The notes below the pieces were generated by a model. It saw only the letters and a list, made by a program, of their open reading frames with translations. It made no database searches and was not told the DNA's origin. From the IMG/VR virus record IMGVR_UViG_3300045988_093993: a stretch of DNA of 37,756 nt; one strand, 5' to 3'. Each line of letters begins with the position of its first letter. Position 1 is the first letter of the stretch. The position numbers were made by a program, and so were the translations under genes. Positions 1 through 37,756 of the stretch are shown here, one piece after another. The stretch comes from a virus.

Positions 1-55
1 AAAAGCATTTGCAATATCACCATCACTAACAGTCCATCCCATCAGATACGCTGGA
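1..55. repeat. Terminal direct repeat copy 1 (identical to 37702..37756)
   Basis: Base-by-base comparison: aaaagcatttgcaatatcaccatcactaacagtccatcccatcagatacgctgga occurs at both ends. Confidence 0.97.
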
Positions 56-228
56 GAAACGTTGCCGAGATGAGCAGCAGCCTCTATTTTGTCAGAGGGA
101 ATATTTGTAATGATATTATTTTCATACTTATATAGTGTTTGTTTGGATACATTTATTTTGTCAGCAAAATCAACCTGACTCATTCCTAGTTTGTTCCTAA
201 TTTCTTTTATACGTTCACCAACAGTCAT
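1..228 (-). CDS. XRE/cI-type HTH repressor, N-terminal 76 codons (gene wraps the window junction and continues at 37701..37447)
   Basis: Minus-strand translation from ATG at 228: MTVGERIKEIRNKLGMSQVDFADKINVSKQTLYKYENN...AYLMGWTVSDGDIANAF. This is a classic HTH_3 motif. AGGAGG lies upstream. 228 + 255 nt = 161 codons in frame across the junction. Confidence 0.85.
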   Translation of the reverse strand, partial: MTVGERIKEIRNKLGMSQVDFADKINVSKQTLYKYENNIITNIPSDKIEAAAHLGNVSPAYLMGWTVSDGDIANAF

Positions 229-257
229 GTTTAGTTCCTCCTTTATGAAGTAACTTT

Positions 258-286
258 ATAATAGCACAAAAATGTTGTAATTGCAA
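258..286 (-). promoter_or_regulatory. Leftward (repressor) promoter: -35 TTGCAA (281..286), 17-nt spacer, extended -10 TGcTATTAT (-10 at 258..263)
   Basis: Reverse complement reads TTGCAA-17 nt-TATTAT preceded by TG. The -35 sits inside the 12-bp near-palindrome TTGTAATTGCAA (275..286), a likely operator. Confidence 0.55.
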
Positions 287-297
287 TAAAAAATATC

Positions 298-325
298 TTG
301 ACAATTTACCGAAATGTGATATACT
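298..325 (+). promoter_or_regulatory. Rightward (cro/early) promoter: -35 TTGACA (298..303), 16-nt spacer, extended -10 TGaTATACT (-10 at 320..325)
   Basis: Near-consensus sigma-A hexamers read directly, 33 nt upstream of the Cro-like start. Divergent from the repressor promoter. Confidence 0.65.
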
Positions 326-358
326 AAGACTAACTTAAAAAGATACGGAGGTGAAAGT

Positions 359-559
359 GTGATAAAGACAAATGAACTGAGAGGGATAATTGCTAAAAAT
401 GGATTATCTCAAACAGATGTTGCCAAAATGATAGGCGTTACGCCAAAAACATTTTATGAAAAGATGAAAAATGGTGTTTTTGGTAGTGATGAGATTCAAA
501 TTATGATTGATGAACTACATATAGATGATCCAATGCCTATTTTTTTTGCACATGAGTAA
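359..559 (+). CDS. Cro-like small HTH regulator
   Basis: 66 aa, GTG start after GGAGGTG. The motif GLSQTDVAKMIGVTPKTFYEKM is HTH-like. Divergent from the repressor. Confidence 0.7.
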   Translation: MIKTNELRGIIAKNGLSQTDVAKMIGVTPKTFYEKMKNGVFGSDEIQIMIDELHIDDPMPIFFAHE

Positions 560-10708: not shown

Positions 10709-10909
10709 TTGCAGGAGAAACGAAGCAGAAAAGAACAGCGGCGGGACAGGCAGCAGCATTATGAAGAGTTGGAGAGCCGGCATGATGCAAAGGCGTTGGA
10801 GAGATTTAAGCGACCGGCTTACCAGAGCGTAAGCGTTGCGGAATATCTGGCAAGGAAGTATGACATTACAGCGGAGGTGGATACCGGTGGACAAGGGCAT
10901 TTTGATTGA
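10709..10909 (+). CDS. Hypothetical basic small protein
   Basis: TTG start after GAAGGTGA. Confidence 0.4.
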   Translation: MQEKRSRKEQRRDRQQHYEELESRHDAKALERFKRPAYQSVSVAEYLARKYDITAEVDTGGQGHFD

Positions 10910-11369
10910 GTACGCGGATATGAAAGAAGAGATTAAGGATCTGCGCCGGAGAATTGAAAAAATCCAGAAAGAATTGGATAAACTGCATGGACAAATTGTT
11001 GTGGATTCGGTATCATGTGGCAAGAAGGGCAAGAAGCCACTTGGCACGGTGAAGATCACTGGCAGACCAGTTGGTGTGATTTCCAGAAAAGAACAGCTGC
11101 TGAAAAAGCGGAACAGAAGGCTTGAGGAGCTGGAGGAAGAACTTCTGGAAATGACAATCCAGGTGGAAGAGTACATAGAATCCATTGAGAAGAGTGAGTC
11201 GCGGATTATCTTCCGACTGTATTTTCTGGATGATTTATCGTATCCAAAGGTTGCAGATCAGATGAACAAAATGTTTCCGAAACGCCGAATCCGGTACACA
11301 GATGAGAACGTCCGTAAAAAAATTCAAAGATATTTTGAAAATGTCCCACAATGTCCGGATAAAAAGTGA
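10887..11369 (+). CDS. Putative late-gene transcriptional activator (coiled-coil N-terminus, sigma-70 region-4-like HTH C-terminus)
   Basis: GTG 10887 after GGAGGTGG. C-terminal SRIIFRLYFLDDLSYPKVADQM resembles a region-4 HTH. It is the last gene before the packaging block. Confidence 0.45.
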   Translation: MDKGILIEYADMKEEIKDLRRRIEKIQKELDKLHGQIVVDSVSCGKKGKKPLGTVKITGRPVGVISRKEQLLKKRNRRLEELEEELLEMTIQVEEYIESIEKSESRIIFRLYFLDDLSYPKVADQMNKMFPKRRIRYTDENVRKKIQRYFENVPQCPDKK

Positions 11370-11455
11370 TAGAGTATAAACTGGAATTGATGAAATGTAA
11401 CAAGGTAAGACATTTTTGATGGTTCCTCCGATCGTAAGTATTTAAAACCATGAAG

Positions 11456-11485
11456 AGACACCTGGTATTGCTGGGTGTCTTTTTC
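11456..11485 (+). terminator. Rho-independent terminator
   Basis: AGACACC-loop-GGTGTCT stem followed by TTTTT. Confidence 0.7.
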
Positions 11486-11486
11486 G

Positions 11487-11515
11487 TTGCGTAATGTCGA
11501 AAAAAGGGGTATTAT
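11487..11515 (+). promoter_or_regulatory. Candidate promoter of the P-loop moron: TTGCGT-17 nt-TATTAT
   Basis: Hexamers and spacing counted directly. Lies between the terminator and the RBS. Confidence 0.45.
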
Positions 11516-11546
11516 AGGAATGGATTTTTTATGAGTGGAGGAAAAC

Positions 11547-13076
11547 ATGGGAAAAGATATTACGCTTAATGATATTTACTTTGGAAGAGCTGATGGTTCG
11601 CAAGAAGCTGAAGATAAGAATTTTGAAAACCTTTTTTATAATGGAAATAAAAAGTATGATTTATTAAATGATAATCCAGATAAATATATCATTTCCGGAA
11701 GAAAAGGAACGGGAAAAACAATTTTAGCAAAGTATTTTGAAAAAGAAAAAAATAAAGAGGGCATTCCCACTAAGATATTGAATAAACGAGAATTGGTTTT
11801 GAATTTATATCTTGAAAAAGGGAAATATGCATTAGATAGGCAGGAGCAAGAATTATTTATTGAGTATACTTTATTGTGTGAAATGTCAAAACTAATATTG
11901 GAAAATAAGAGGAAGTTATTTAAAGTTAAAAATATATTGAAATTATGGAAAATACAGAAAAATTTAAAATGTTTAAAACAATTAGTGGAAGAAAGATATC
12001 CGGGTAAGAATTACTATAAGGAATCATACAGTACTGTAAATAATCACGAAGCGAATGCCAGTGATAAAATTAAAAATGGTAGAATTGAAACAGCACTTAA
12101 CGCAAAAATAGGTTATAGTATAGATGAAAAATTTCAAAAAAGTCCGTATTATCAAATTATTGATAAAATGAAAAAGACGTTATTTTATCTCATGAAAATA
12201 ATGCCAGTGAATGTTATTTTTGATGATTTGGATGAATTAGAAGAAAAGCTAGATGAGAATGAAAATCTGATTTATTTTTTAATTGATTTCATTGAAGTGT
12301 CGAATTCTTTAAATACGCAAATAAGGAAAGAAGGCATATACAATAGTCGAATAATCATTCTTATAAGATCGGATATAATAAAACTTTTAAATGAAAATTC
12401 GTCTAATCTCAATAAAATAATTACTGATTCAGAAATTCGACTTAATTGGATAAAAAAGGTTAAAGGAAATGAGATGCATCCTCTTATGGAATTAATTGTG
12501 ACTAAAATTAAAAAGTCTAATTCTGAATTAATTAACTTAAGCAACGAAGAAGTAGAGAGTAGATTTTTTCCACAAAAGGTTAATGGAATTCCAGTAATGG
12601 ATCATATGCTAAATTGCAGTTTTGGAAGACCTAGGGATATTGTTACGATGCTGAATGTAATAAAAAATGAATATCCGGATAAGAAAGCTTTTTATTCGGA
12701 GTTATTTAAAAGTACACAGCAGGAATATTCAATTAAATTTACGGATGAATTGAGAAATGAATTATCCACACATTATGAGTCAACTGTCATTAAAGAATGT
12801 TTTAGTATAATCCATTCTATAAACAAGAGAACTTTTTGGATTTCAGATATTGAGAAGGCGTTAGAAAAAAATGTAGATGAAAATTCATTTTTTAAAACTA
12901 AAGAGCAGTTTGCAGATTTTATATATGCCTATGGAATAGCTGGAAATATATGGCAAAATGAGGGAAATAGAAAAAATAATTTTTCATGGAAATATAGGGA
13001 AGATGGAAATGAGAGTCCGGATTATAATAAAAAGTTCTATTTACATATAGGATTAAGAAAGACCTTATTGGGATAA
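11547..13076 (+). CDS. AT-rich AAA+/STAND-like P-loop NTPase (moron; candidate defence/exclusion protein)
   Basis: Walker A GRKGTGKT, Walker B VIFDDLDE, sensor-like GRPRDIV. GGAGG RBS plus ATG 11547. Own promoter, and terminators on both sides. Confidence 0.75.
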   Translation: MGKDITLNDIYFGRADGSQEAEDKNFENLFYNGNKKYDLLNDNPDKYIISGRKGTGKTILAKYFEKEKNKEGIPTKILNKRELVLNLYLEKGKYALDRQEQELFIEYTLLCEMSKLILENKRKLFKVKNILKLWKIQKNLKCLKQLVEERYPGKNYYKESYSTVNNHEANASDKIKNGRIETALNAKIGYSIDEKFQKSPYYQIIDKMKKTLFYLMKIMPVNVIFDDLDELEEKLDENENLIYFLIDFIEVSNSLNTQIRKEGIYNSRIIILIRSDIIKLLNENSSNLNKIITDSEIRLNWIKKVKGNEMHPLMELIVTKIKKSNSELINLSNEEVESRFFPQKVNGIPVMDHMLNCSFGRPRDIVTMLNVIKNEYPDKKAFYSELFKSTQQEYSIKFTDELRNELSTHYESTVIKECFSIIHSINKRTFWISDIEKALEKNVDENSFFKTKEQFADFIYAYGIAGNIWQNEGNRKNNFSWKYREDGNESPDYNKKFYLHIGLRKTLLG

Positions 13077-13119
13077 AAAAACGTGTGAAAAATACTTTGT
13101 TGTTTTTCACACGTTTTTT
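13077..13119. terminator. Strong bidirectional-type terminator
   Basis: A-run, CGTGTGAAAAA ... TTTTTCACACG stem, then TTTTTT. Confidence 0.8.
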
Positions 13120-13259
13120 ATGAGAGCATCTACATCTCTCCACATATAAAAATATTTATCAAGCTTTCTTATGCTTACACCAGCATTATATGCTTAAAAC
13201 ATATTATAAGCAAGTCTTTTGGAAAAAAATTAACGTAAAATTCACATTTAAAATGTTTA

Positions 13260-13282
13260 AGCACACTCCGGGGTGCTTTTTT
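13260..13282 (+). terminator. Weak terminator-like hairpin plus T6
   Basis: AGCAC-loop-GTGCT followed by TTTTTT. Confidence 0.35.
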
Positions 13283-13295
13283 AATACACAAAATT

Positions 13296-13367
13296 GGATC
13301 ATTAGTTCAGCGGTAGAACATTCGCCTCATAAGCGAAATGTCACAGGTTCGATACCTGTATGATCTA
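13296..13367 (+). tRNA. tRNA with CAT anticodon (elongator Met, or Ile2 if lysidine-modified)
   Basis: Hand-folded cloverleaf: acceptor GGATCAT/ATGATCT, D stem GTTC/GAAC, anticodon stem TTCGC/GCGAA with loop CTCATAA, T arm ACAGG-TTCGATA-CCTGT. Confidence 0.85.
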
Positions 13368-13404
13368 TCAATAACAAAAAAGATAGAAAAGGTGGTGAGT
13401 CCGA

Positions 13405-13854
13405 GTGACAAAAAAACAGAAAATATTTGCAGATGAATATCTGATTGATTTAAATGCCACTCGGGCTTACAAAGTGGCGTATCCAAATGTTAAGAATGAT
13501 GTTACAGCAGCTGCAGCGGCAAGTAGATTGTTAAGAAATGTTAAGGTTCAAGAGTATATCGCACAGAGAATGGCGGAAAAGGAATCCAAGCGCATTGCTG
13601 ATCAGGATGAGGTCCTCAGGTATTTAACTTCTGTTCTCCGGGGAAAAAGCCGGGCACAGGAGATTGTGGTAGAAGGAATCGGAGAAGGCTGTAGTGAAGC
13701 GAGAACGATGGAGAAAGCGCCGTCAGAAAAAGAACGGTTGAAAGCTGCAGAACTGCTCGGTAAACGGTATGCATTATTTACGGATAAGGTAGACATGGAT
13801 GCTGATATGGACCTGAATATCACAATTGATTATGGTGAGGCTGATATAGGGTGA
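13405..13854 (+). CDS. terS: Terminase small subunit (P27/Terminase_4-like)
   Basis: KQKIFADEYLIDLNATRAYKVAYPNVK...ASRLLRNVKVQEYI is the typical N-terminal HTH of this family. Confidence 0.8.
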   Translation: MTKKQKIFADEYLIDLNATRAYKVAYPNVKNDVTAAAAASRLLRNVKVQEYIAQRMAEKESKRIADQDEVLRYLTSVLRGKSRAQEIVVEGIGEGCSEARTMEKAPSEKERLKAAELLGKRYALFTDKVDMDADMDLNITIDYGEADIG

Positions 13855-15110
13855 AGATAAATGTACAGGCAAACCCATGCTTTAAAGAGGTTGACCAGAG
13901 CCATAAGCGATACATAGTCATGAAGGGTTCAGCCGGATCTGGGAAGAGTGTAGACACAGCTCAGAATTATATCTTGCGGCTGATGCAGGACAAGGGAAGA
14001 AATCTGGTTGCCATGCGTAAATCAGATATCACCAACAGAGACAGTACCTTTGCGGAGCTTACAGGTTCACTGTATAAGATGTTTGGTGATAAAGCGGATG
14101 CATACTGGAAAATCAACCGAAGCCCCCTGATGCTGACATGTAGAAGTAATGGGAACCAGATCATTTTCCGTGGAATGAATGACGACAGGCAACGGGAAAA
14201 ACTGAAGTCCATTACGTTTCCGAAGGGAAAGCTGACGGATGTATGGATGGAAGAGGCAACGGAGTTTACCCAGGCGGATCTTGAAATCATTGATGACCGT
14301 TTGCGTGGAGAGCTTCCACCGGGACAATTTTATCAAATTAGGATGACCTTCAATCCAGTAAACAAAAATCACTGGATTAAGAAGGTCTTTTTTGACCTTC
14401 CGGATTCCAACGTCCTGACGCATCACAGCACATACCTTGGCAACCGGTTTATTGATGATGCATACCGGCAGCGTATGGAACGTCGAAAGATTGTTGATCC
14501 GGAAGGCTACCAGATATACGGACTTGGTGAATGGGGCGAGATTGGCGGACTGATCCTGCATAACTGGGAGGTTCGGGAAGTATCACAGAATCTTAATGAT
14601 TATGATGATGTGGCTATCGGGCAGGACTTTGGATTTAACCATGCAGACGCCATATTGCTTGTAGGAATTAAAGACGGGAATTTACATATCATCGATGAGA
14701 TTTATGAGCATGAAAAAGAAACGGCTGAGATTATACCAATAGCCATACAGCATGCGATACCGACAAATAAAATAATGTGGTGTGACAGCGCCGAGCCGGA
14801 CAGGATTAAGACCTGGAGAAATGCGGGATACAGAGCTAAAGGTGTTGATAAAGGCGGTTCAAATGGTTCGGTGAAAGCACAGATTGACTGGATAAAAGGT
14901 GTAGTCGATAAGAAGCACACGGTTAAACGCAGGATCTATGTTGCTCCACATTGTGTAAATACGATCAAGGAGCTACAGCAATGGAAGTGGAAGAAGGATG
15001 AAAAGACAGGTGAATACATGGATGATCCGGTTCCAATCATGGATGATGCAATGGCAGCGTTACGATATGCTGTTGAGGGATGGCGTAAAGCAAGTAAATG
15101 GCTGATGTAA
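13851..15110 (+). CDS. terL: Terminase large subunit (PBSX/Terminase_3-like)
   Basis: Walker A GSAGSGKS, Walker B-like DVWMEEATE, nuclease part QDFGFNHADA. GTGA overlap with terS. Confidence 0.9.
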   Translation: MKINVQANPCFKEVDQSHKRYIVMKGSAGSGKSVDTAQNYILRLMQDKGRNLVAMRKSDITNRDSTFAELTGSLYKMFGDKADAYWKINRSPLMLTCRSNGNQIIFRGMNDDRQREKLKSITFPKGKLTDVWMEEATEFTQADLEIIDDRLRGELPPGQFYQIRMTFNPVNKNHWIKKVFFDLPDSNVLTHHSTYLGNRFIDDAYRQRMERRKIVDPEGYQIYGLGEWGEIGGLILHNWEVREVSQNLNDYDDVAIGQDFGFNHADAILLVGIKDGNLHIIDEIYEHEKETAEIIPIAIQHAIPTNKIMWCDSAEPDRIKTWRNAGYRAKGVDKGGSNGSVKAQIDWIKGVVDKKHTVKRRIYVAPHCVNTIKELQQWKWKKDEKTGEYMDDPVPIMDDAMAALRYAVEGWRKASKWLM

Positions 15111-28144: not shown

Positions 28145-29011
28145 ATGGCAACAAATTATTTAGATACAGGAGATACAGGACGTGCAGTTAGTGCAGAATC
28201 TGACGGTGCACTATTTGCCGGGATTTTTGGAAGTGCAAAATATGTATTAGAAAACGGCAGCCAGTTCAAGGCAGAGGTACAGTCCAATAACATTGTAAAA
28301 ATCTCCGATGGTGATGCAGTCATGTACGGACGACACGTAAGGATCCCGGCGAATGATAGCGCACTGGTGACTATTAACAATGGACATTCTGGAACGAACA
28401 GGATTGATCTGATCGTGTTCCGGTACACAAAGGATAGCACCGGAAAAGAAACGGTTGATCTGGTTGTGATCCATGGAGAAGATTCTACCGGAACAGCTAT
28501 AGCACCGACGGCGGTGGATGGAAATATACTGACCGGTGCAATGCAGTCAGACTTTCCTCTGTATACCGTGGAACTGAATGGAATCAACATTGTAAAGGTG
28601 AATCCACTGTTCAATGTGATCGGTAATATCAGCAAGTTAAAAGAAGAGCTTACTGAATTAAATAGCAATTTAACCAAAACTAACACTGTTTTAGAGAACA
28701 GGAAACCAATAATCGTTGATTCAACTGCGCAAGGAACAGTAAATTTGGATACCAATAGCTTTTTGAAAGCTGGCATTACATATGCCTTTATCGTTACAGT
28801 TTCCTCCAATATCAGCAGTGAAAGCTATAAACAGGAAATCAATTGTGCATTAAACAATGTAAATATGGGAAATAACGGAAACTATTACAGACTTACCTCT
28901 ACATTTGCAGGTAAATGCACTAAAGGCGATAAGATTCAAATTACATCATATAAAAATGGTGGATCTTGGAACGGTTTTGCGACAAGAGCTATTTTTATAC
29001 CAGTTAGCTAA
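28145..29011 (+). CDS. Tail fibre / receptor-binding protein: constant N-terminal part plus currently expressed variable C-terminal cassette (from 28658)
   Basis: Last structural gene. Coiled-coil ISKLKEELTELNSNL precedes an AT-richer C-terminal domain. Contains crossover site 1. Confidence 0.7.
   Translation: MATNYLDTGDTGRAVSAESDGALFAGIFGSAKYVLENGSQFKAEVQSNNIVKISDGDAVMYGRHVRIPANDSALVTINNGHSGTNRIDLIVFRYTKDSTGKETVDLVVIHGEDSTGTAIAPTAVDGNILTGAMQSDFPLYTVELNGINIVKVNPLFNVIGNISKLKEELTELNSNLTKTNTVLENRKPIIVDSTAQGTVNLDTNSFLKAGITYAFIVTVSSNISSESYKQEINCALNNVNMGNNGNYYRLTSTFAGKCTKGDKIQITSYKNGGSWNGFATRAIFIPVS
28656..28670 (+). repeat. Crossover site 1 (AATTAAATAGCAATT) inside the tail-fibre gene, in frame as E-L-N-S-N
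   Basis: 15/15 identical to the inner half of IR-L (29111..29125). The 13-nt core AATTAAATAGCAA is shared with IR-R. Confidence 0.7.
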
Positions 29012-29033
29012 AATAAGTAAATAAACTTATTTA

Positions 29034-29059
29034 CACTCGGCATCTGGTCGGGTGTTTTT
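29034..29059 (+). terminator. Terminator after the tail-fibre gene
   Basis: CACTCG-loop-CGGGTG plus TTTTT, preceded by an AATAAGT/ACTTATT hairpin. Confidence 0.55.
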
Positions 29060-29098
29060 GATATGCATTTTTACATGTAACTTTATTAACGACAGTAA

Positions 29099-29123
29099 GG
29101 AGTGATTCTTAATTAAATAGCAA
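29099..29123 (+). repeat. IR-L: GGAGTGATTCTTAATTAAATAGCAA, left boundary of a 743-bp invertible segment
   Basis: Exact reverse complement of 29817..29841 (checked base by base). Similarity continues imperfectly about 20 nt further inward. Confidence 0.9.
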
Positions 29124-29481
29124 TTGCCAAAAAAATTTTAATAATACACTCACAGAAGTAAGCATTGGTACAGACAGCTCGTATTTGTATTATAACGAAA
29201 GAGAAGCTTACATAATGATATCCGAATCTATAAAAAAAATTACAGGTGGAAATGTTAATACTAATATTGTTATTACGTTACCAAAAGAATTTAGAATCGA
29301 TACTCATGCTATACAAGGAAAATCGGCTCAAATCCTAAACAGCTCGTGGGTTCCAACAGGAGACTTGCTTCATTTAGGCATCAGTGGACAAAACATACGC
29401 GGAAGATGTAAGGAAAACCATGAAAATTGTGTAATTGTATTTTCAGCGCAATTTCCAAGATCCTTTCTTAAGATATCTTAG
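29113..29481 (+). other. Silent tail-fibre C-terminal cassette A (no ATG/RBS; frame opens at the TTA AAT AGC of IR-L)
   Basis: Hand translation LNSNCQKNFNNTLTEV...ITGGNVNTNIVITLPKEF.... Same phase relative to the site as in the expressed gene. Track ORF 29185..29481 is its 3' part. Confidence 0.6.
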
Positions 29482-29503
29482 AAGTATTCTGTAACATTTA
29501 TCG

Positions 29504-33338: not shown

Positions 33339-34826
33339 TTATGAGTGGTATAAAAAGAAATGAATTTTCAGAGTATCGGATTCCCGATCGTAAACAATCT
33401 TATCTATAATCTGCTTTAAAGCTTCATTTTTCTGGACAAGAGAGTAAGAATCAGAAACCAGAATATCATGGACGGAGCTTACCCGATCCAGCATTTTAGG
33501 AGTAGGATCATCCAGAATCTTATCCGGCGTATTTTCTTCCAGCTCTGCAAGCTGCCGTTCCAGAGAGTCTCTTTCTTTGGCAATCAGAGCTTTATTTTCT
33601 TTATATTCTTCCAGTGTATCAATACCCTCTCTGTATGACGCACGTATCCTGTCCTCTTTGCCTTTCAAACTGGCAAGGCGTTCACTTATAAGGGTACGCT
33701 CATTAGAAAGCTCCTGTGGGCGAATTTCGCGCATTTCATAAACAATCGAATTGGAACCAAGAGCTTCTTCTAATGCTTTCAGGACTTCTTTTTCGATCAC
33801 CAGAGAGCTTACACCGTGTGGTTTATCGCATTTTCCTTTGCTGTATCCGTAGCAGGAGAAGTACGCATACTTTTCCCCGTTGGCACGCTTCATGGTCGTA
33901 GCGGTCAGTGTGCGCCCGCATACCGGGCATTTCAGCAGTCCGGACAGCCAGTGCTTATATGTAGAAGAGGGGCGCTTTCCAACCGGTTTATAGATCTTTT
34001 TCAGGCGTTCCTGGGCGGCATCGAAGAGTTCTTTACTTATAATCGCCTCCTGCATTCCGTCAGCAATGATCCACTCGTCCTGGTCTTTGATCCGGTTGGT
34101 GGCGTTTTCTATCCGGTTCCATCGGATCATACCGCAGTAGGATGGATTTTGAATAATATATTCGATACTGCGCCGTTCAAAAGCTTTCCCGTGGGATGTT
34201 TTCAGTCCGAGAGAGTTCAGATGTCGGGCAATATCAAAGAAACTCATTTTCCCATTTACATATTTATCAAAGATCATACGGACAATTGCAGCTTCTTCCG
34301 GAACGATAACCGGAGGCTTGCCACGTTCTATAACTTTATAGCCAAGTGGCGGTCTTGCCTGGTATGCACCGCGGGTGGCGTTTTCTTTCATGCCACGGAA
34401 TACCTCGCCGGATAAGCGAATGGAGTAGTATTCATCCATCCACTCTATGATACGTTCGATCAGAGAGCCGAACGGACCGTCTGCCAGTGGCTCGGAGATA
34501 CTGATCACATCTACATTATGTTGCTTCTTTAAAAGAGATTTATACACAATGGACTCTTCCTGATTCCGGGCGAACCGACTGAATTTCCATACCAGGATGC
34601 AGTCAACCGGATGATCCGGACCTTTGGCCAGACCAATCATTTCTTGAAATCCTGGGCGTTTATCCGCTTTTCTTCCAGAGATACCGAGATCCGTGAAGAT
34701 CTTCAAGATTACAATATTATTTTTGGCTGCATAATCCCGGAGGAGATGCTCCTGGGAATCCGGAGAGATTTCTTCCTGATCGTGGGTGGATACACGGATA
34801 TATCCGTATGCATATTTTAGGCTCAT
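33339..34826 (-). CDS. int: Large serine recombinase (integrase); start at ATG 34826, not the track start 34988
   Basis: MSLKYAYGYIRVSTHDQ catalytic motif, recombinase domain, zinc ribbon CPVCGRTL...C and C-terminal coiled coil. AAAGGAG RBS. Confidence 0.9.
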   Translation of the reverse strand: MSLKYAYGYIRVSTHDQEEISPDSQEHLLRDYAAKNNIVILKIFTDLGISGRKADKRPGFQEMIGLAKGPDHPVDCILVWKFSRFARNQEESIVYKSLLKKQHNVDVISISEPLADGPFGSLIERIIEWMDEYYSIRLSGEVFRGMKENATRGAYQARPPLGYKVIERGKPPVIVPEEAAIVRMIFDKYVNGKMSFFDIARHLNSLGLKTSHGKAFERRSIEYIIQNPSYCGMIRWNRIENATNRIKDQDEWIIADGMQEAIISKELFDAAQERLKKIYKPVGKRPSSTYKHWLSGLLKCPVCGRTLTATTMKRANGEKYAYFSCYGYSKGKCDKPHGVSSLVIEKEVLKALEEALGSNSIVYEMREIRPQELSNERTLISERLASLKGKEDRIRASYREGIDTLEEYKENKALIAKERDSLERQLAELEENTPDKILDDPTPKMLDRVSSVHDILVSDSYSLVQKNEALKQIIDKIVYDRESDTLKIHFFLYHS

Positions 34827-35030
34827 TGTATCAGCTCCTTTGTATTTTATGTAAAAAAGGGTACAAAAATAACAGCCCGAGAACTTTTGTTCTCTTGCGT
34901 GGCTGCTCCGAAGATGATACAATATTATTTGGAAATTGGGTATCTCTTCGGAGTACTTAATAGAGAAACATATTGGCGTATGTTTCATCGCTCGACCGTT
35001 CCTGTTGGCGCAGGAGCGGTTTTTATTTAT

Positions 35031-35765
35031 TTACCAGCCTTGTACGGAAATAACGTATTCGTCATGTTCTGGAAGGTTGTATTCGGATAGTTCAAAAGGT
35101 TTTGTTGTGCCAGCTGTCATGTTGTCTACATAAGTAGTATCTCCATAAACGATGGAACCATTGCTTTTCAACAGGACAGTGACGGCAACCATGTCAATAT
35201 CGGAATCACTGTTATTTGCAACTTCTCCGGTATAAGAAACAGCGCCATAATCCTGAACTATTTCACTTGTATTGGAAAACGAGAATGAAGATACCGGAAT
35301 GATTCCCGATGTATCCCCAGGAACGAAAGTTCCAGAGTGAATCGAAAATTCTACAGTGGCAGGCACCTTTCCGTTACAGTCGATAACACTTCCAAAAGAA
35401 ATAGTGTCGTTTGGCGCGATATAGAAGAGTGTCTGATCAGAAGTTCCAACAATAGAACCATCCTCTCCTTTGGCTGTGATGGTTAAAACCGGAAGCTGCA
35501 TCGCCCAATCAGCATTTGGATTGTTTAAAGTTACGCCATAATAAGCATAGACATCGCCCATTCCATCATCACTGATATAGTACCCACTTTCTGCAATAGA
35601 TGCTTCCTGCTTTTCGGCCTCTTTCTTCTCTTCTTTTTTCTGCGATACAGAATTACTGTTTGAAGTTTTCTGCGAACTAGAGTCACTTGCAGAAGAACCT
35701 CCACACGCAGTAAAAGATGTTGCCATAACTCCAGCCAACATTAGTGCTACAATTTTTCTTCTCAT
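35031..35765 (-). CDS. Prophage lipoprotein (candidate superinfection-exclusion factor)
   Basis: Signal peptide MRRKIVALMLAGVMATSFTAC with a lipobox Cys, then a Ser-rich linker. AAGGAGG RBS. Confidence 0.7.
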   Translation of the reverse strand: MRRKIVALMLAGVMATSFTACGGSSASDSSSQKTSNSNSVSQKKEEKKEAEKQEASIAESGYYISDDGMGDVYAYYGVTLNNPNADWAMQLPVLTITAKGEDGSIVGTSDQTLFYIAPNDTISFGSVIDCNGKVPATVEFSIHSGTFVPGDTSGIIPVSSFSFSNTSEIVQDYGAVSYTGEVANNSDSDIDMVAVTVLLKSNGSIVYGDTTYVDNMTAGTTKPFELSEYNLPEHDEYVISVQGW

Positions 35766-35833
35766 AAAGTTTGTCCTCCTTCTTATGGAATGTAGTATTT
35801 ATATAATCACAAAAGCGCGGTCATATATTAAAA

Positions 35834-36331
35834 TTAGTCTGTTTCGCTAAGTGCTATAGTTTTTGTTATTCCGGAAACTGTTACCTGATAGGTAATCTGT
35901 TTGCTTGAATCAGAATAAGAAAACTCTTTTGTATCATCCAGAGAAGCAAGAAGAGCGGAATCGGTTGCTTCTTTGTCTCTGGTAGATGTCCAAGTATATT
36001 CTTCAGAATATTCTGTAGGAGCAGTATAGGTTCCAACCCAGTAAACAGCAGTCGTGTTTCCTTCATCCATGATCCAGTTTATTGTGATGGTATCCTCTGT
36101 AATATCTGCCTGCATCCAAGTACCGTCATCATCTTTGTACTCCCATTTTCCAGTAAGCACAACAGGTTCTTTGACTTCTTCCTTTGCTTCCTCTTTTGGA
36201 GTTTCGGTAGATGCTTCTGTCTTCTTGGATGATTCCTTTGCTTCTTTTGATGAAGCGGAGCTATTGCCGCAGGCTGTAAATGACAGTGCCATGCTTCCAA
36301 TCAGAATCAATGCTACAAGTTTCTTTTTCAT
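35834..36331 (-). CDS. Prophage lipoprotein 2
   Basis: MKKKLVALILIGSMALSFTAC lipobox followed by a K/E-rich linker. GAGGAGG RBS. Confidence 0.7.
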   Translation of the reverse strand: MKKKLVALILIGSMALSFTACGNSSASSKEAKESSKKTEASTETPKEEAKEEVKEPVVLTGKWEYKDDDGTWMQADITEDTITINWIMDEGNTTAVYWVGTYTAPTEYSEEYTWTSTRDKEATDSALLASLDDTKEFSYSDSSKQITYQVTVSGITKTIALSETD

Positions 36332-36378
36332 AATTTTTCCTCCTCATAAAAAGTGTTTCTATATAATCGCATATGCGG

Positions 36379-36849
36379 TTATACCAATTTCATCACAGAC
36401 AACTGTGGTATAAAATACACCACATAATTATCTACCCGTTTACAAATCCCGTACTTATTCCGGTAACATTCAATACATTCTTCCAGAAATTCTTCTGTCA
36501 CTTCCAGGTATTCAGCGATTTCAAACCGGTTCTGGCAGCCATGCTCAAAGGCTCGTACCAGTCCGATCAGACCGATCTGCTTGTTGTACGCCCAGAGTCT
36601 TGCCTGACGTTCCTGTTTTCGGTTGGCAGCAGATGTCATATCAAGAATATTGCCAACGGAAGTGTAGTGGTGTCCGAGTTCTTCGGCAAGGACACAGGAT
36701 TTTTCTGTGGTTGTAGTAATATCCTGCCGGATTGCAATTCGACTACCTTTGATTCGACCATTATTATATTTTAGAGGTTTTTCTTTTACTGTGAGACCAA
36801 TATCGCTGGCCTCATCTAAAAGTGCTTCATAAGTGTTTATTGCTAACAC
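36379..36849 (-). CDS. ImmA/IrrE-family zinc metalloprotease (anti-repressor protease)
   Basis: HExxH as AEELGHHY. Located in the repressor operon. Start uncertain. Confidence 0.75.
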   Translation of the reverse strand: MLAINTYEALLDEASDIGLTVKEKPLKYNNGRIKGSRIAIRQDITTTTEKSCVLAEELGHHYTSVGNILDMTSAANRKQERQARLWAYNKQIGLIGLVRAFEHGCQNRFEIAEYLEVTEEFLEECIECYRNKYGICKRVDNYVVYFIPQLSVMKLV

Positions 36850-36859
36850 CCCCTAAAGA

Positions 36860-37435
36860 TCAATTTTTCTTTTTCAAAGTATAATTTTCTTTTATAAAAT
36901 ATCCATTACCGCCCTGCCAACAATAGATTTCGACTTTGCCAATACTACCATCCGCAAGATAATATATCCGTCCATGTATAGTTTTCCCTGTTTTTGAAGA
37001 TTCGCGTTTCCAAACCTCATCCGAAGATAATGGGGCAATTCTCATACTTAGAGGAAATTTAGCGGGTTTACCACTCTTGGTAGTAGGAGAACAAAACAAA
37101 CAGCAAAAGTCATCGTGTCCAGATTTCATGCCTTCAGATGAAAATCGAGCAGTTGCAACATCAATACTGAAACGAGAAAAAATTTTATCCGTTTTGGCAT
37201 GTTCTTTGATTATACTATTGATTTTTTTCAAGTCCTCTCTTGCCTTATTAAGATTTATTCCTTCAATGAGATAACACGGATCGGAATTAGGAGTATGTTT
37301 ATAAACTTTAATGTTTGTAAAATCATATCCTATATTAGGGAAGAGCTTCATATCTTCGACAGTCACAGTTTTAACAGCAGGAACAGTAGGTTTTGGCTTT
37401 GGTACTTCTTTTTTGAAAAAATTGAAAAATCCCAT
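36860..37435 (-). CDS. Hypothetical 191-aa protein inserted between the repressor and ImmA
   Basis: AAGGAG RBS, AT-rich, no recognisable motif. Separated from its neighbours by 10 to 11 nt, so operonic. Confidence 0.6.
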   Translation of the reverse strand: MGFFNFFKKEVPKPKPTVPAVKTVTVEDMKLFPNIGYDFTNIKVYKHTPNSDPCYLIEGINLNKAREDLKKINSIIKEHAKTDKIFSRFSIDVATARFSSEGMKSGHDDFCCLFCSPTTKSGKPAKFPLSMRIAPLSSDEVWKRESSKTGKTIHGRIYYLADGSIGKVEIYCWQGGNGYFIKENYTLKKKN

Positions 37436-37446
37436 AAATTATCTCC

Positions 37447-37756
37447 TTAAAAATTATCATCATCCATAACATCATTATCTGATGTATCTGTTCCTTCAGG
37501 AATATTTATATCTGTACGTGTGTGCGCAGCATTAAGTTGTGGACTTGTTTGCATTTCCTGAAGTGATAGCAACTGAGTAGTGTATTTGTCAATATCCTTT
37601 CGGTTTATTTCGTGTAAGTGTAAATAATTTTTAAAATGTTCTTTTTCGGAAGGTGAAAAATCTTTTATGCTATCAATTATATCTTCCAAATTATCATTGA
37701 TAAAAGCATTTGCAATATCACCATCACTAACAGTCCATCCCATCAGATACGCTGGA
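37447..37756 (-). CDS. C-terminal part of the XRE/cI-type repressor (continuation of 228..1; 37702..37756 duplicates 1..55)
   Basis: The reading frame ...DIANAF|INDNLEDII... is continuous across the junction. Acidic C-terminal tail. Confidence 0.8.
   Translation of the reverse strand, partial: PAYLMGWTVSDGDIANAFINDNLEDIIDSIKDFSPSEKEHFKNYLHLHEINRKDIDKYTTQLLSLQEMQTSPQLNAAHTRTDINIPEGTDTSDNDVMDDDNF
37702..37756. repeat. Terminal direct repeat copy 2 (identical to 1..55)
   Basis: Same 55-mer as 1..55. It lies inside a coding sequence, so it is most simply an assembly overlap of a circular molecule. Confidence 0.97.

What the first reader, a model, noticed from the sequence alone, without database searches (positions are those of the whole stretch)
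11487..13119. Terminator-insulated, self-promoted, AT-rich P-loop NTPase moron between late regulator and terminase: candidate prophage defence gene
The 509-aa ORF (11547..13076) is compositionally foreign. I count 13/60 G+C in the line starting at 11641 versus 26/60 in the terL line at 14041. It is bracketed by a terminator upstream (11456..11485) and a very strong one downstream (13077..13119). It has its own TTGCGT-17-TATTAT promoter and a GGAGG RBS, which is the classic moron architecture allowing expression from the prophage. The protein has Walker A GRKGTGKT, Walker B VIFDDLDE and a GRPRDIV motif reminiscent of the sensor-2 region of AAA+/ORC-Cdc6/STAND ATPases. A roughly 130-aa helical C-terminal region follows, and I see no recognisable effector domain. 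It interrupts the otherwise universal late regulator to terS junction. I could not match it to any named defence family from memory.
Basis: partly seen in the sequence, partly recalled or inferred. Interest (0 to 1): 0.8.

Follow-up and report, generated by a model that had tools for sequence, protein, structure and literature searches.

The report
Gut-phage homologue of P2 Fun(Z)
This AT-rich, terminator-flanked gene in a temperate gut phage is a distant relative of Fun(Z), the phage P2 gene known to protect lysogens against T5 and other large phages by a mechanism that is still unknown, so it is a new member of a known defence family, not a new kind of system.

Summary
A 509-aa ORF (11547..13076, +) at 27% G+C sits in a 41% G+C temperate siphophage, flanked by two strong hairpin terminators and preceded by a promoter-like site and a GGAGG RBS.

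The protein can be named. It is a full-length member of NCBIfam NF047389, "P-loop ATPase, Sll1717 family" (234 bits, cutoff 75). Coliphage P2 Fun(Z) belongs to the same family (209 bits; hhalign 99.4%, E 2.5e-21). Fun(Z) is a classic AT-rich lysogenic-conversion gene that blocks T5, T-even and other large phages; its mechanism was still unknown in 2025.

An AlphaFold model (pLDDT 86) shows an Orc1/Cdc6-like AAA+ domain, lid and divergent winged helix, with no effector domain.

Family members are solitary and AT-rich in 64 of 66 loci. They sit in prophage inter-operon or end slots and in chromosomal islands next to R-M or CRISPR loci.

Only 1 of 80 phages sharing this late regulator carries the gene. 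Others hold a TIR protein, small membrane proteins or two-gene cassettes in the same slot. The upstream terminator and promoter belong to the phage backbone. The mobile cassette is 11535..13254.

Verdict: defence interpretation supported; new member of a known kind; moderate interest.

The parts
10836..11369 (+). Phage transcription regulator (presumed late activator); left border of the cargo slot
   Evidence: phrog_36 'transcriptional regulator' E 1.8e-13, with a weak sigma-factor PHROG hit. 80 viral contigs share it at 52-99% identity.
11452..11489 (+). Upstream intrinsic terminator (hairpin plus T-run); part of the phage backbone
   Evidence: dG -18.9, z -5.2. The stem is conserved and the loop varies in sister phages.
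11487..11515 (+). Backbone 'socket' promoter: -35 TTGCGT, 17-nt spacer, -10 TATTAT
   Evidence: -10 invariant in 12/12 and -35 in 11/12 sister phages, with divergence immediately downstream. The TTGCRT-N17-TATTAT motif is present in 33 of 80 sister loci. Activity and timing are untested.
11535..13254 (+). Mobile cassette: RBS, ORF, terminator and a 135-nt 3' flank
   Evidence: This is the only stretch shared (78% nt) with FunZ-carrying phages that have other backbones. It matches the gap in homology with sister phages lacking the gene: homology ends at 11515-11549 and resumes at 13256-13273.
11537..11541 (+). Ribosome-binding site GGAGG, 5 nt before the ATG
   Evidence: Read directly from the sequence.
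11547..13076 (+). Fun(Z)/Sll1717-family P-loop ATPase, 509 aa
   Evidence: NF047389 E 3.9e-69, 233.9 bits, cutoff 75. phrog_13260 E 1.1e-71. hhalign against P2 Fun(Z) 99.4%.
11697..11720 (+). Walker A motif GRKGTGKT (residues 51-58)
   Evidence: G51 and K53-T58 are invariant in 59 family members including P2 Fun(Z).
11922..12146 (+). Hypervariable patch (residues 126-200): end of a basic helical insert plus a long beta-hairpin insert between Walker A and Walker B
   Evidence: Close homologues differ at 50-69% of positions here against 29% overall. It is the least conserved region family-wide and has low pLDDT.
12207..12236 (+). Walker B motif VNVIFDDLDE (residues 221-230)
   Evidence: D226 and D229 are invariant in 59 sequences.
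12366..12374 (+). R274-S-D276 at the end of strand beta-4 (sensor-1 position)
   Evidence: R274 and D276 are invariant in 59 sequences. The assignment as sensor 1 is my inference.
12624..12638 (+). GRPRD motif in the lid domain (residues 360-364); candidate sensor-2 arginine
   Evidence: P362, R363 and D364 are invariant; R361 is conserved in 58/59.
12774..13073 (+). C-terminal winged-helix-like domain (residues 410-509)
   Evidence: Domain model pLDDT 93.1. The fold hit list is dominated by winged-helix DNA-binding domains, but no hit is significant.
13076..13119 (.). Strong bidirectional terminator belonging to the cassette
   Evidence: dG -21.4, z -6.2 on the plus strand; -17.3, z -6.7 on the minus strand. 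Three lineages have hairpins of different sequence at the same position.
13122..13146 (+). Conserved non-coding block GAGAGCATCTACATCTCTCCACATA within the cassette's 3' flank (13120..13254); role unknown
   Evidence: Nearly invariant across lineages whose coding DNA is 67-78% identical. Found only next to FunZ homologues of at least 55% identity: 13 of 178 loci and 4 contigs in all of IMG/VR.
13259..13278 (+). Weak backbone hairpin plus T-run, just before the tRNA
   Evidence: Found by the terminator scan. dG -7.5, z -1.3, not significant. Backbone homology resumes here.
13295..13369 (+). tRNA-Met (anticodon CAT); backbone; right border of the slot
   Evidence: ARAGORN. Rfam RF00005, 69.1 bits. 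Present in 13 sister loci and in Dorea phage DO134P1.
13405..13854 (+). Terminase small subunit
   Evidence: Pfam Terminase_2 E 3.8e-30.
13851..15110 (+). Terminase large subunit
   Evidence: Pfam Terminase_3 E 2e-49.

Best explanation
The ORF encodes a Fun(Z)/Sll1717-family P-loop ATPase. This is a stand-alone, horizontally mobile anti-phage (superinfection-exclusion or abortive-infection) gene carried as cargo by a temperate Lachnospiraceae-type siphophage.

SHOWN:
- It is a full-length member of the family that contains P2 Fun(Z).
- It has an Orc1/Cdc6-like AAA+ domain, lid and winged-helix architecture, with invariant ATP-binding and hydrolysis residues and no enzymatic effector domain.
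- It is a discrete cassette (11535..13254) sitting in a variable slot. The backbone supplies an upstream terminator and a conserved sigma-70-like promoter.
- Relatives are solitary, AT-rich, and lie in prophage slots and defence-type islands.

INFERRED (about 0.7): like P2 Fun(Z), it protects the lysogen against other phages, probably large ones.

INFERRED mechanism (about 0.3): the protein is a nucleotide-dependent switch. The hypervariable insert (residues 126-200), together with the basic helical insert and the winged helix, recognises a phage-specific nucleic-acid or protein cue. ATP-dependent assembly on DNA, in the manner of Orc1/Cdc6, DnaA or TnsC, then blocks phage DNA replication or expression, or arrests the cell. 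No nuclease or NADase of its own is involved.
For: Family: NF047389 at 233.9 bits for the window protein and 209.3 bits for P2 Fun(Z). hhalign of the family profile against Fun(Z): 99.4%, E 2.5e-21, 486 columns. BLASTP: E 2e-10 over the full length.

Phenotype of the founder: the GenBank note reads 'cloned gene blocks growth of T5; lysogenic conversion'. Fun/Z inhibits all Tevenvirinae, Vequintavirinae and Markadamsvirinae (PMC8594841). It targets most phages above about 60 kb, and its molecular basis is unknown (PMC11990801).

Fold: model pLDDT 85.6, pTM 0.81. Best PDB neighbours are Cdc6/Orc1 2qby (E 3.3e-5), SSO1545, ORC4, BrxC and RdrA. The C-terminal domain is winged-helix-like and shows no enzyme fold.

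Invariant residues across 59 members: Walker A, D226/D229, R274/D276 and P362-R363-D364.

Single-gene system: the top 150 of 3037 relatives are all about 480-540 aa when complete, and no partner recurs among 148 neighbouring genes.

Composition: lower G+C than the flanks in 64 of 66 loci. P2 fun(Z) is 32.8% G+C in a 50.2% genome.

Contexts: before terS in three unrelated prophage lineages; after holin/lysin at prophage ends; in the P2 orf30 slot; next to a type I R-M system and a type III-A CRISPR locus; on integrative elements.

Slot: 1 of 80 sister phages carries it. Alternative cargos are a TIR protein, small multi-TM proteins, and two-gene soluble-plus-TM cassettes.

The phage has its own replication module.
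Against: No experiment has been done on this protein. Identity to P2 Fun(Z) is only 24%, and function can drift at that distance.

PADLOC-DB v2 gives no hit.

Expression in the lysogen is not shown. The socket promoter could be the activator-dependent late promoter, in which case the gene would be made mainly during the phage's own lytic cycle.

Fold similarities are distant (TM 0.4-0.5), and the winged-helix assignment rests on non-significant hits.

The proposed mechanism is inference. An effector-less ATPase could equally act by recruiting a host factor. The invariant His500 that I first read as a STAND 'MHD' histidine is absent from P2 Fun(Z).
Confidence: 0.7

Rival explanations
1. It is a phage life-cycle ATPase: an Orc1/Cdc6- or DnaC-like replication initiator or helicase loader, or a packaging accessory factor placed next to terS.
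For: The fold neighbours are replication initiators (Cdc6/Orc1, ORC, DnaA) and the AAA+ regulator TnsC. The gene lies directly upstream of the packaging module in three prophage lineages.
Against: The gene is present in only 1 of 80 phages sharing the regulator, and the same slot holds unrelated cargo or almost nothing. The phage already has an AAA_24 protein and a DUF927 primase-helicase. Homologues occur as solitary chromosomal genes beside housekeeping, R-M or CRISPR genes. The P2 member is annotated as nonessential. Only 2 of 50,697 GenBank phage records match by tblastn.
Confidence: 0.04
2. It is a defence or exclusion gene that is expressed from the activator-dependent late promoter, not constitutively. 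It would then act mainly during the phage's own lytic growth, for example against co-infecting phages or satellites, and would not protect the lysogen.
For: The socket promoter lies exactly where RinA/ArpU/Ltr-type late promoters lie, between the regulator and terS. Its -35 matches consensus at only 3/6. Cargo genes are always co-oriented with the late operon. In sister phage L105 the cargo runs straight into the backbone with only a weak hairpin before the tRNA and terS.
Against: The FunZ cassette ends in a very strong terminator (dG -21.4). That would cut off the late operon if the socket promoter were its only source of transcription. The -10, -35 and 17-nt spacing are sigma-70-like and invariant. 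P2 fun(Z) is annotated as a lysogenic-conversion gene.
Confidence: 0.15
3. It is a selfish or addiction-type cassette, or a lysogenic-conversion factor that alters host physiology (for example nucleotide or DNA metabolism), with no anti-phage role in this host.
For: P2 Fun(Z) also 'confers sensitivity to FUdR', so it affects host physiology. The cassette moves between backbones as a unit with a conserved 3' element. 7 of 66 family loci are internally disrupted, which is compatible with a fitness cost.
Against: The one tested member has a broad anti-phage phenotype. Co-location with R-M, CRISPR and toxin-antitoxin genes, and a slot shared with a TIR protein, fit defence better. No antitoxin-like partner gene recurs.
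Confidence: 0.08
4. It is an anti-defence (counter-defence) factor that helps the phage overcome host immunity.
For: Accessory genes near this position in related prophages include orphan DNA methylases, and one carries a Tad2-like gene.
Against: Homologues sit stably in bacterial chromosomes next to intact R-M and CRISPR systems. The P2 member protects the host against other phages.
Confidence: 0.03

Closest known systems
Coliphage P2 Fun(Z) (Z/fun; AAD03288.1)
   Same: Both belong to NCBIfam NF047389 and align over their full length. Size is similar (528 against 509 aa). Walker A, the Walker B aspartate, R-x-D and RPRD are all conserved. Both genes are strongly AT-rich relative to the phage, are solitary and nonessential, and lie between a terminator and the next late operon of a temperate phage.
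   Different: Identity is only 24%. The host is Gram-positive (Lachnospiraceae-type siphophage) and not a P2-like myophage. The gene is co-oriented with the late genes and not divergent from them. The slot is different (regulator to tRNA/terS). His500 and Gly360, conserved in the Firmicute branch, are absent from P2 Fun(Z). The phenotype has not been tested here.
Archaeal Orc1/Cdc6 and SSO1545-type AAA+ ATPases (PDB 2qby, 2fna)
   Same: These are the best structural matches. They share the AAA+ base, lid and C-terminal winged-helix order, and both have an insertion after strand beta-2, where the initiator-specific motif lies.
   Different: There is no significant sequence similarity, and Pfam hits fall below threshold. 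Fun(Z)-type proteins have a much larger insert of about 120 aa that includes a long beta-hairpin. The gene is not in a replication context.
Defence ATPases BrxC (BREX) and RdrA (RADAR)
   Same: Both appear among the fold neighbours (E 1e-3 and 5e-3). They are ORC/STAND-like ATPases used in anti-phage systems.
   Different: They work with partner proteins in multi-gene operons and are larger. Fun(Z)-type genes are solitary. PADLOC models for those systems do not hit this protein.
STAND NTPases (NACHT, NB-ARC, Avs, bNACHT)
   Same: There are weak sub-threshold Pfam hits to NPHP3_N, NACHT and nSTAND3. An arginine occupies the sensor-1 position, there is a GxP-like motif in the lid, and a winged helix follows the lid.
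   Different: There is no N-terminal effector and no C-terminal repeat sensor. All Pfam scores are below the gathering thresholds, and PADLOC NLR/Avs models do not hit.
P2 and P4 defence hotspots (old/tin, Z and orf30 regions)
   Same: Both are variable inter-operon slots in a temperate phage that hold AT-rich, swappable anti-phage cargo. Fun(Z) homologues occupy the orf30 slot in P2-like contigs.
   Different: Here the slot lies between the late regulator and tRNA-Met/terS of a siphophage, and the backbone provides a conserved terminator-promoter 'socket'.

Membership tests
Fun(Z)/Sll1717 P-loop ATPase family (NCBIfam NF047389) | Full-length match to the family HMM above the curated cutoff | tested here: met
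   233.9 bits, E 3.9e-69, cutoff 75; residues 12-507 cover profile positions 1-454 of 454.
Fun(Z)/Sll1717 P-loop ATPase family (NCBIfam NF047389) | Demonstrable homology to the founding member, P2 Fun(Z) | tested here: met
   P2 Fun(Z) scores 209.3 bits on the same HMM. hhalign of the profile against Fun(Z): 99.4%, E 2.5e-21, 486 columns. BLASTP: E 2e-10.
Fun(Z)/Sll1717 P-loop ATPase family (NCBIfam NF047389) | Conserved catalytic and signature motifs (GxKGTGKT, Walker B Asp, R-x-D, RPRD) | tested here: met
   All are invariant in a 59-sequence alignment that includes P2, Lactococcus, Enterobacter, Haemophilus and Fusobacterium members.
Fun(Z)/Sll1717 P-loop ATPase family (NCBIfam NF047389) | Stand-alone gene of about 500 aa with no fused effector or obligate partner | tested here: met
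   Complete proteins among the top 150 of 3037 relatives are about 480-540 aa. No Pfam family recurs in more than 3 of 148 neighbours.
Fun(Z)/Sll1717 P-loop ATPase family (NCBIfam NF047389) | Anti-phage phenotype (exclusion of T5-like and other large phages) | not testable with these tools
   Known only for P2 Fun(Z). Needs plaque assays.
AAA+ initiator clade (Orc1/Cdc6-like) | AAA+ base, lid and winged-helix fold | tested here: met
   Foldseek: 2qby_A E 3.3e-5 (TM 0.40/0.52); 2fna_A E 3.9e-5; 7tjj_D E 4.5e-5. The similarity is distant.
AAA+ initiator clade (Orc1/Cdc6-like) | Sequence-profile membership (Pfam AAA, AAA_22, ORC-CDC6-like) above the gathering score | tested here: not met
   AAA 12.7, AAA_22 14.5 and AAA_16 12.5 bits, all below cutoffs. 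Homologues have only weak PF24389 ORC-CDC6-like hits.
AAA+ initiator clade (Orc1/Cdc6-like) | Role and context in replication initiation | tested here: not met
   The gene lies outside the replication module, is dispensable among sister phages, and also occurs as a solitary chromosomal gene.
STAND NTPases (NACHT, NB-ARC, Avs, bNACHT) | NACHT, NB-ARC or nSTAND profile match above threshold | tested here: not met
   NPHP3_N 20.0 bits (cutoff 24.8), NACHT 17.6 (26.7), nSTAND3 10.2 (27.2).
STAND NTPases (NACHT, NB-ARC, Avs, bNACHT) | Tripartite architecture: effector domain, NOD, repeat-type sensor | tested here: not met
   The 509 aa are fully accounted for by the ATPase, lid and winged helix. 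There are no repeats and no effector fold.
Catalogued defence systems (PADLOC-DB v2.0.0) | Match to any PADLOC protein model | tested here: not met
   0 families at E <= 1.
Moron (autonomous accessory cassette in a prophage) | Flanked by a promoter and terminator, compositionally distinct, absent from close relatives | tested here: met
   Terminators; G+C 27% against 41%; absent from 79 of 80 sister phages. Nuance: the promoter and upstream terminator are backbone, not cargo.
Moron (autonomous accessory cassette in a prophage) | Transcribed in the lysogen independently of the lytic programme | not testable with these tools
   Only comparative conservation of the -35 and -10 is available. There are no transcript data.

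The most novel reading that the evidence does not exclude
Fun(Z)-type proteins could be a minimal, effector-less immune switch. In this reading a single Orc1/Cdc6-like ATPase uses a rapidly diversifying insert (residues 126-200) to recognise a feature common to large phages. It then stops infection simply by ATP-driven assembly on DNA, without a nuclease, NADase or membrane effector. Separately, this phage family would provide a 'plug-and-play' expression socket (terminator, invariant promoter, cargo, terminator) upstream of tRNA-Met/terS, and the FunZ cassette would carry its own conserved 3' element (13122..13146) needed for its mobility or for restarting late transcription.
Probability: 0.2. 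Interest if true: 0.7.

Novelty: new member of a known kind. Interest (0 to 1): 0.4.

Why it matters
Fun/Z is one of the oldest known prophage defence genes. In the BASEL screens it was the broadest of the five abortive-infection systems tested (RexAB, PifA, Old, Tin, Fun/Z), yet its mechanism is still unknown.

This work shows three things. The 'Sll1717/FunZ' proteins annotated across Firmicutes, Fusobacteria and Proteobacteria are the same family as P2 Fun(Z). They are built like Orc1/Cdc6 with no effector domain. And PADLOC-DB v2 gives no hit for this member.

Together these give (i) a likely functional label for several thousand 'hypothetical' or 'P-loop ATPase' genes in gut prophages, (ii) concrete residues and a hypervariable patch to mutate, and (iii) a natural defence hotspot in Lachnospiraceae phages whose other cargos (a TIR protein, soluble-plus-TM pairs, small TM proteins) are candidate new systems.

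For this particular window, however, the finding is an additional member of a known family, not a new kind of system.

Tried and rejected
(1) 'FunZ' as a functional lead. The literature search first led to the Glaesserella capsule-locus name 'function unknown gene Z', which carries no information. The productive link was P2 fun(Z).

(2) 'Sll1717' returns no papers.

(3) PADLOC gave no hit. Pfam gave only sub-threshold P-loop, NACHT and NPHP3_N hits.

(4) Searches of PDB sequences, with the single protein and with the family profile, gave nothing significant. BFVD fold search gave nothing below E 1e-2.

(5) I considered a STAND reading, with invariant His500 as the 'MHD' histidine. I dropped it because P2 Fun(Z) and the Lactococcus member lack that histidine, and because STAND profiles and architecture are not met.

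(6) I looked for a conserved partner gene among 148 genomic neighbours and found none.

(7) I looked for a hidden effector in the C-terminal third. Only winged-helix-like similarity turned up, and none of it was significant.

(8) I tried to read the cassette's conserved 3' flank as a structured RNA, a small ORF or a canonical promoter. There is no significant fold on either strand, the start codon is not conserved, and no hexamer pair has convincing spacing. Its role is unresolved.

(9) The simple promoter and terminator scan was uninformative here. Folding and comparative alignment were used in its place.

(10) Searches for recent mechanistic work on Fun/Z found none.
Full report
1. THE OBSERVATION

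The ORF is real. It runs 11547..13076 on the + strand and encodes 509 aa. A GGAGG at 11537..11541 lies 5 nt before the ATG, and homologues begin at the same methionine.

The gene is 27.1% G+C against 41.2% for the rest of the window. The 500-nt composition profile drops to 0.26-0.28 exactly over the gene.

The upstream hairpin (11452..11484 plus T-run) folds at -18.9 kcal/mol (z -5.2). The downstream hairpin (13076..13119) folds at -21.4 kcal/mol (z -6.2) and also folds on the minus strand. For both, 0 of 200 shuffles fold as well. The consensus scan missed them only because of its loop and stem limits.

The proposed promoter, TTGCGT-17-TATTAT (11487..11515), is weak by consensus (3/6 + 5/6), and promoter-like sites in this region are no more frequent than in shuffles. 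Comparison rescues it. In 12 sister phages down to about 73% identity, the -10 is invariant and the -35 is invariant in 11, while the sequence diverges directly after the -10.

Walker A, Walker B and GRPRD are present and conserved.

2. WHAT IT IS

NCBIfam places the protein, end to end, in NF047389, 'P-loop ATPase, Sll1717 family' (233.9 bits; cutoff 75). PHROGs has a matching phage family of unknown function, phrog_13260 (E 1e-71). PADLOC-DB v2 has nothing. Pfam shows only sub-threshold NPHP3_N, NACHT and AAA hits.

Some database sources call homologues 'FunZ protein'. The literature first suggested this was merely 'function unknown gene Z' of a Glaesserella capsule locus. However, P2-type tail genes appeared among the neighbours of viral homologues. 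That pointed to coliphage P2, whose record annotates fun(Z) (528 aa) as 'cloned gene blocks growth of T5; nonessential; lysogenic conversion; confers sensitivity to FUdR'.

P2 Fun(Z) scores 209.3 bits on the same NCBIfam model over its full length. It aligns with the profile of the window protein's relatives at 99.4% probability, E 2.5e-21, over 486 columns. It matches the window protein directly at E 2e-10 and 24% identity. The window gene is therefore a distant member of the Fun(Z) family.

3. WHAT IS KNOWN ABOUT THE FAMILY'S FOUNDER

Maffei et al. tested Fun/Z against the BASEL collection. [quoted passage not shown] 60 kb, but the molecular basis ... has remained unknown' (PMC11990801).

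Vassallo et al. note that fun marks a second defence hotspot in P2-like phages (PMC9519451). The Z, orf30 and TO regions of P2-like phages are recognised horizontal-transfer slots (PMC3091744). The fun gene is reported to be exchanged between phages and bacteria through flanking inverted repeats (PMC8987985, citing Nilsson 2004).

I found no mechanistic or structural paper and no solved relative in the PDB.

4. ANATOMY OF THE PROTEIN

An AlphaFold2 model built with 48 homologues is confident (pLDDT 85.6, pTM 0.81). Its layout is as follows:
- Residues 1-45: a conserved N-terminal segment.
- Residues 46-79: strand beta-1, Walker A, helix alpha-1 and strand beta-2.
- Residues 80-200: an insert of about 120 aa, made of a consistently basic helical bundle (median net charge +6) and a long, low-confidence beta-hairpin.
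- Residues 221-300: Walker B through strand beta-5.
- Residues 301-380: a lid domain carrying GRPRD.
- Residues 381-509: two helices and a winged-helix-like domain.

The closest solved folds are archaeal Cdc6/Orc1 (2qby_A, E 3.3e-5), SSO1545 (2fna_A), ORC4, then BrxC of BREX, RdrA of RADAR, TnsC and DnaA. All are distant (TM 0.3-0.5).

The C-terminal third was modelled alone (pLDDT 93). It has no significant fold match, but its hit list consists almost entirely of winged-helix DNA-binding domains and contains no enzyme fold.

Across 59 family members, including P2, Lactococcus, Enterobacter, Haemophilus and Fusobacterium proteins, the invariant residues are G51, K53-T58, D226, D229, R274, D276, W301 and P362-R363-D364. 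This is the ATP-binding and hydrolysis apparatus plus probable sensor residues; the sensor assignment is my inference.

Residues 126-200 are the least conserved region family-wide. Among close relatives they differ at 50-69% of positions against 29% overall.

The family is sizeable, with 3037 clusters at 50% identity at E <= 1e-3 and 512 at E <= 1e-30. It is architecturally uniform, with no fused domains among the top 150 hits.

5. WHERE FAMILY MEMBERS LIVE

The gene is always solitary. Among 148 neighbours from 28 genomes, no Pfam family recurs more than three times.

The contexts seen are:
- Just upstream of the packaging module in three unrelated prophage lineages. The identical protein P0002 occurs in mosaics with different replication modules and two terS types.
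- At prophage ends after holin and lysin: Lactococcus phage CAP, C. difficile, Enterocloster and many IMG/VR contigs.
- In the orf30 slot of P2-like contigs.
- On integrative or mobilisable elements.
- Beside a type I R-M system plus a PIN protein and PemK in Salinicoccus.
- Beside a type III-A CRISPR locus in Fusobacterium.
- As one of three alternative occupants of a Neisseria island (PMC8627216).

The gene is more AT-rich than its flanks in 64 of 66 loci, staying at 23-35% G+C even in 57% G+C hosts. P2 fun(Z) is 32.8% G+C in a 50.2% genome, like old, tin and orf30. Seven of the 66 loci are internally disrupted.

6. THE SLOT IN THIS PHAGE

The window is a temperate siphophage. It has a serine integrase, a GH25/LysM endolysin, an AAA_24 protein and a DUF927 primase-helicase, so it has its own replication machinery.

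Eighty IMG/VR contigs share its regulator, and only one of them, the same phage, carries the ATPase. Where terS is recognisable, the regulator-to-terS gap ranges from 143 bp to 2.1 kb.

All alternative cargos are on the + strand and AT-rich. They are a TIR-domain protein (TIR_2, E 3.8e-24), two small three-TM proteins, and three two-gene cassettes that each pair a soluble protein of 311-345 aa with a 4-5-TM protein.

Homology with sister phages ends at 11515-11549 in 29 loci, or at the regulator's stop codon in 11 loci. It resumes at 13256-13273. The upstream terminator, promoter and RBS region are therefore a backbone 'socket'.

The only DNA shared with FunZ-carrying phages of other backbones is 11535..13254. 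That stretch defines the mobile cassette as RBS, ORF, terminator and a 135-nt 3' flank.

The cassette's terminator has a different sequence in three lineages but is always a hairpin plus T-run.

The right border of the slot is a tRNA-Met(CAT) at 13295..13369. It is also present in Dorea phage DO134P1 and in 13 sister loci.

7. HOW IT MOST LIKELY WORKS

What is shown: membership in the family of a validated defence gene; an intact and strongly conserved ATPase site; an Orc1/Cdc6-like architecture with a winged helix and a basic insert where the initiator-specific motif lies; no effector domain; and a hypervariable patch.

What is inferred, at about 0.7: the gene protects its lysogen from other phages.

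What is inferred, at about 0.3: the protein acts as a nucleotide switch whose variable insert senses an infection cue. ATP-dependent assembly on nucleic acid then blocks phage replication or expression, or arrests the cell. The FUdR hypersensitivity of P2 lysogens and the preference for large phages would fit a cue linked to DNA or nucleotide metabolism, but that is speculation.

Whether the socket promoter is constitutive or is the activator-dependent late promoter is unresolved. If it is constitutive, the cargo is made in the lysogen, and the late genes are reached by read-through, antitermination or another promoter. Every cargo is followed by a hairpin before the tRNA or terS, and the FunZ cassette adds a very strong terminator.

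8. RIVALS

A life-cycle replication or packaging ATPase is effectively excluded by the gene's dispensability, the phage's own replication genes and the non-phage contexts. An anti-defence role is unlikely given the stable chromosomal copies beside R-M and CRISPR systems and the phenotype of the P2 member. Late-only expression, and a selfish or physiological role, remain possible minority readings.

9. NOVELTY AND VERDICT

This is a new, distant member of a known kind.

The added value is threefold: the explicit link between the widespread 'Sll1717/FunZ' annotation and the P2 defence gene, a structural reading of a system whose mechanism is unknown, and the definition of a cargo hotspot in these gut phages.

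Interest 0.4.

Noticed in passing
window 13295..13369 (+): A tRNA-Met (anticodon CAT) lies between the ATPase cassette and terS. The finding did not mention it. It is backbone, conserved in 13 sister loci and in Dorea phage DO134P1, and it forms the right border of the cargo slot.
   Followed up: yes
window 13122..13146 (within the 3' flank 13120..13254): The non-coding block GAGAGCATCTACATCTCTCCACATA, directly after the cassette terminator, is better conserved than the ORF across lineages of 55-82% protein identity. It occurs only beside these FunZ homologues (13 of 178 loci; 4 contigs in all of IMG/VR). It has no significant fold and is not a consistent ORF. Its role is unknown.
   Followed up: partly
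L129:2135-2905; L105:7710-9272; L142:7747-9395; L160:7083-8691; L117:7716-8033; L123:2997-3419: The same regulator-to-terS slot in sister phages holds other AT-rich cargo: a TIR-domain protein, three two-gene cassettes (a soluble protein of 311-345 aa plus a 4-5-TM protein of 188-236 aa) with no Pfam or PADLOC hits, and two small three-TM proteins. These are candidate uncharacterised exclusion or defence systems.
   Followed up: partly
L072-L081 (P2-like IMG/VR contigs), e.g. L077:9989-11500: In P2-like phages a Fun(Z)-family gene (272 bits on NF047389) sits between gpS and gpV, which is the orf30 slot. In P2 itself the gene is in the Z slot between G and FI. The family therefore moves between P2 hotspots.
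   Followed up: yes
window protein residues 126-200 (window 11922..12146): A hypervariable patch lies inside an otherwise conserved ATPase. Close homologues differ at 50-69% of positions here against 29% overall. It may determine specificity, or it may simply be an unconstrained insert.
   Followed up: partly
L041, L045, L047, L050, L052, L075, L082: Seven of 66 family loci carry internally truncated or frameshifted copies. This may reflect a fitness cost of the gene.
   Followed up: no
L013:1-4073 against L012 (Fusobacterium pseudoperiodonticum): The chromosomal site next to the Fusobacterium homologue holds a type III-A CRISPR-Cas locus (Cas10/Csm) in one strain and not in another. This looks like a local defence hotspot.
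   Followed up: no
L007:17521-18015: One prophage carrying the 82%-identical ATPase also encodes a Tad2-like protein (Pfam PF11195) inside its head-gene region. Defence and anti-defence cargo may therefore sit in the same phage.
   Followed up: no
window 35031..37743 (-), and window 29001..29500 and 1..500: Four minus-strand ORFs next to the serine integrase (33339..34988) have no Pfam hit. There are further low-G+C patches (0.32-0.34) at 29.0-29.5 kb and at the left end of the window. These may be additional accessory cargo or lysogeny genes.
   Followed up: no
L077:9989-11497: The P2-like family member gives a weak, sub-threshold hit (26 bits; cutoff 370) to NCBIfam NF053860 'DS41_1_antiphage'. 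That family is named after a DefensePredictor-validated system (PMC13092281). The two ATPase families may be distantly related.
   Followed up: no
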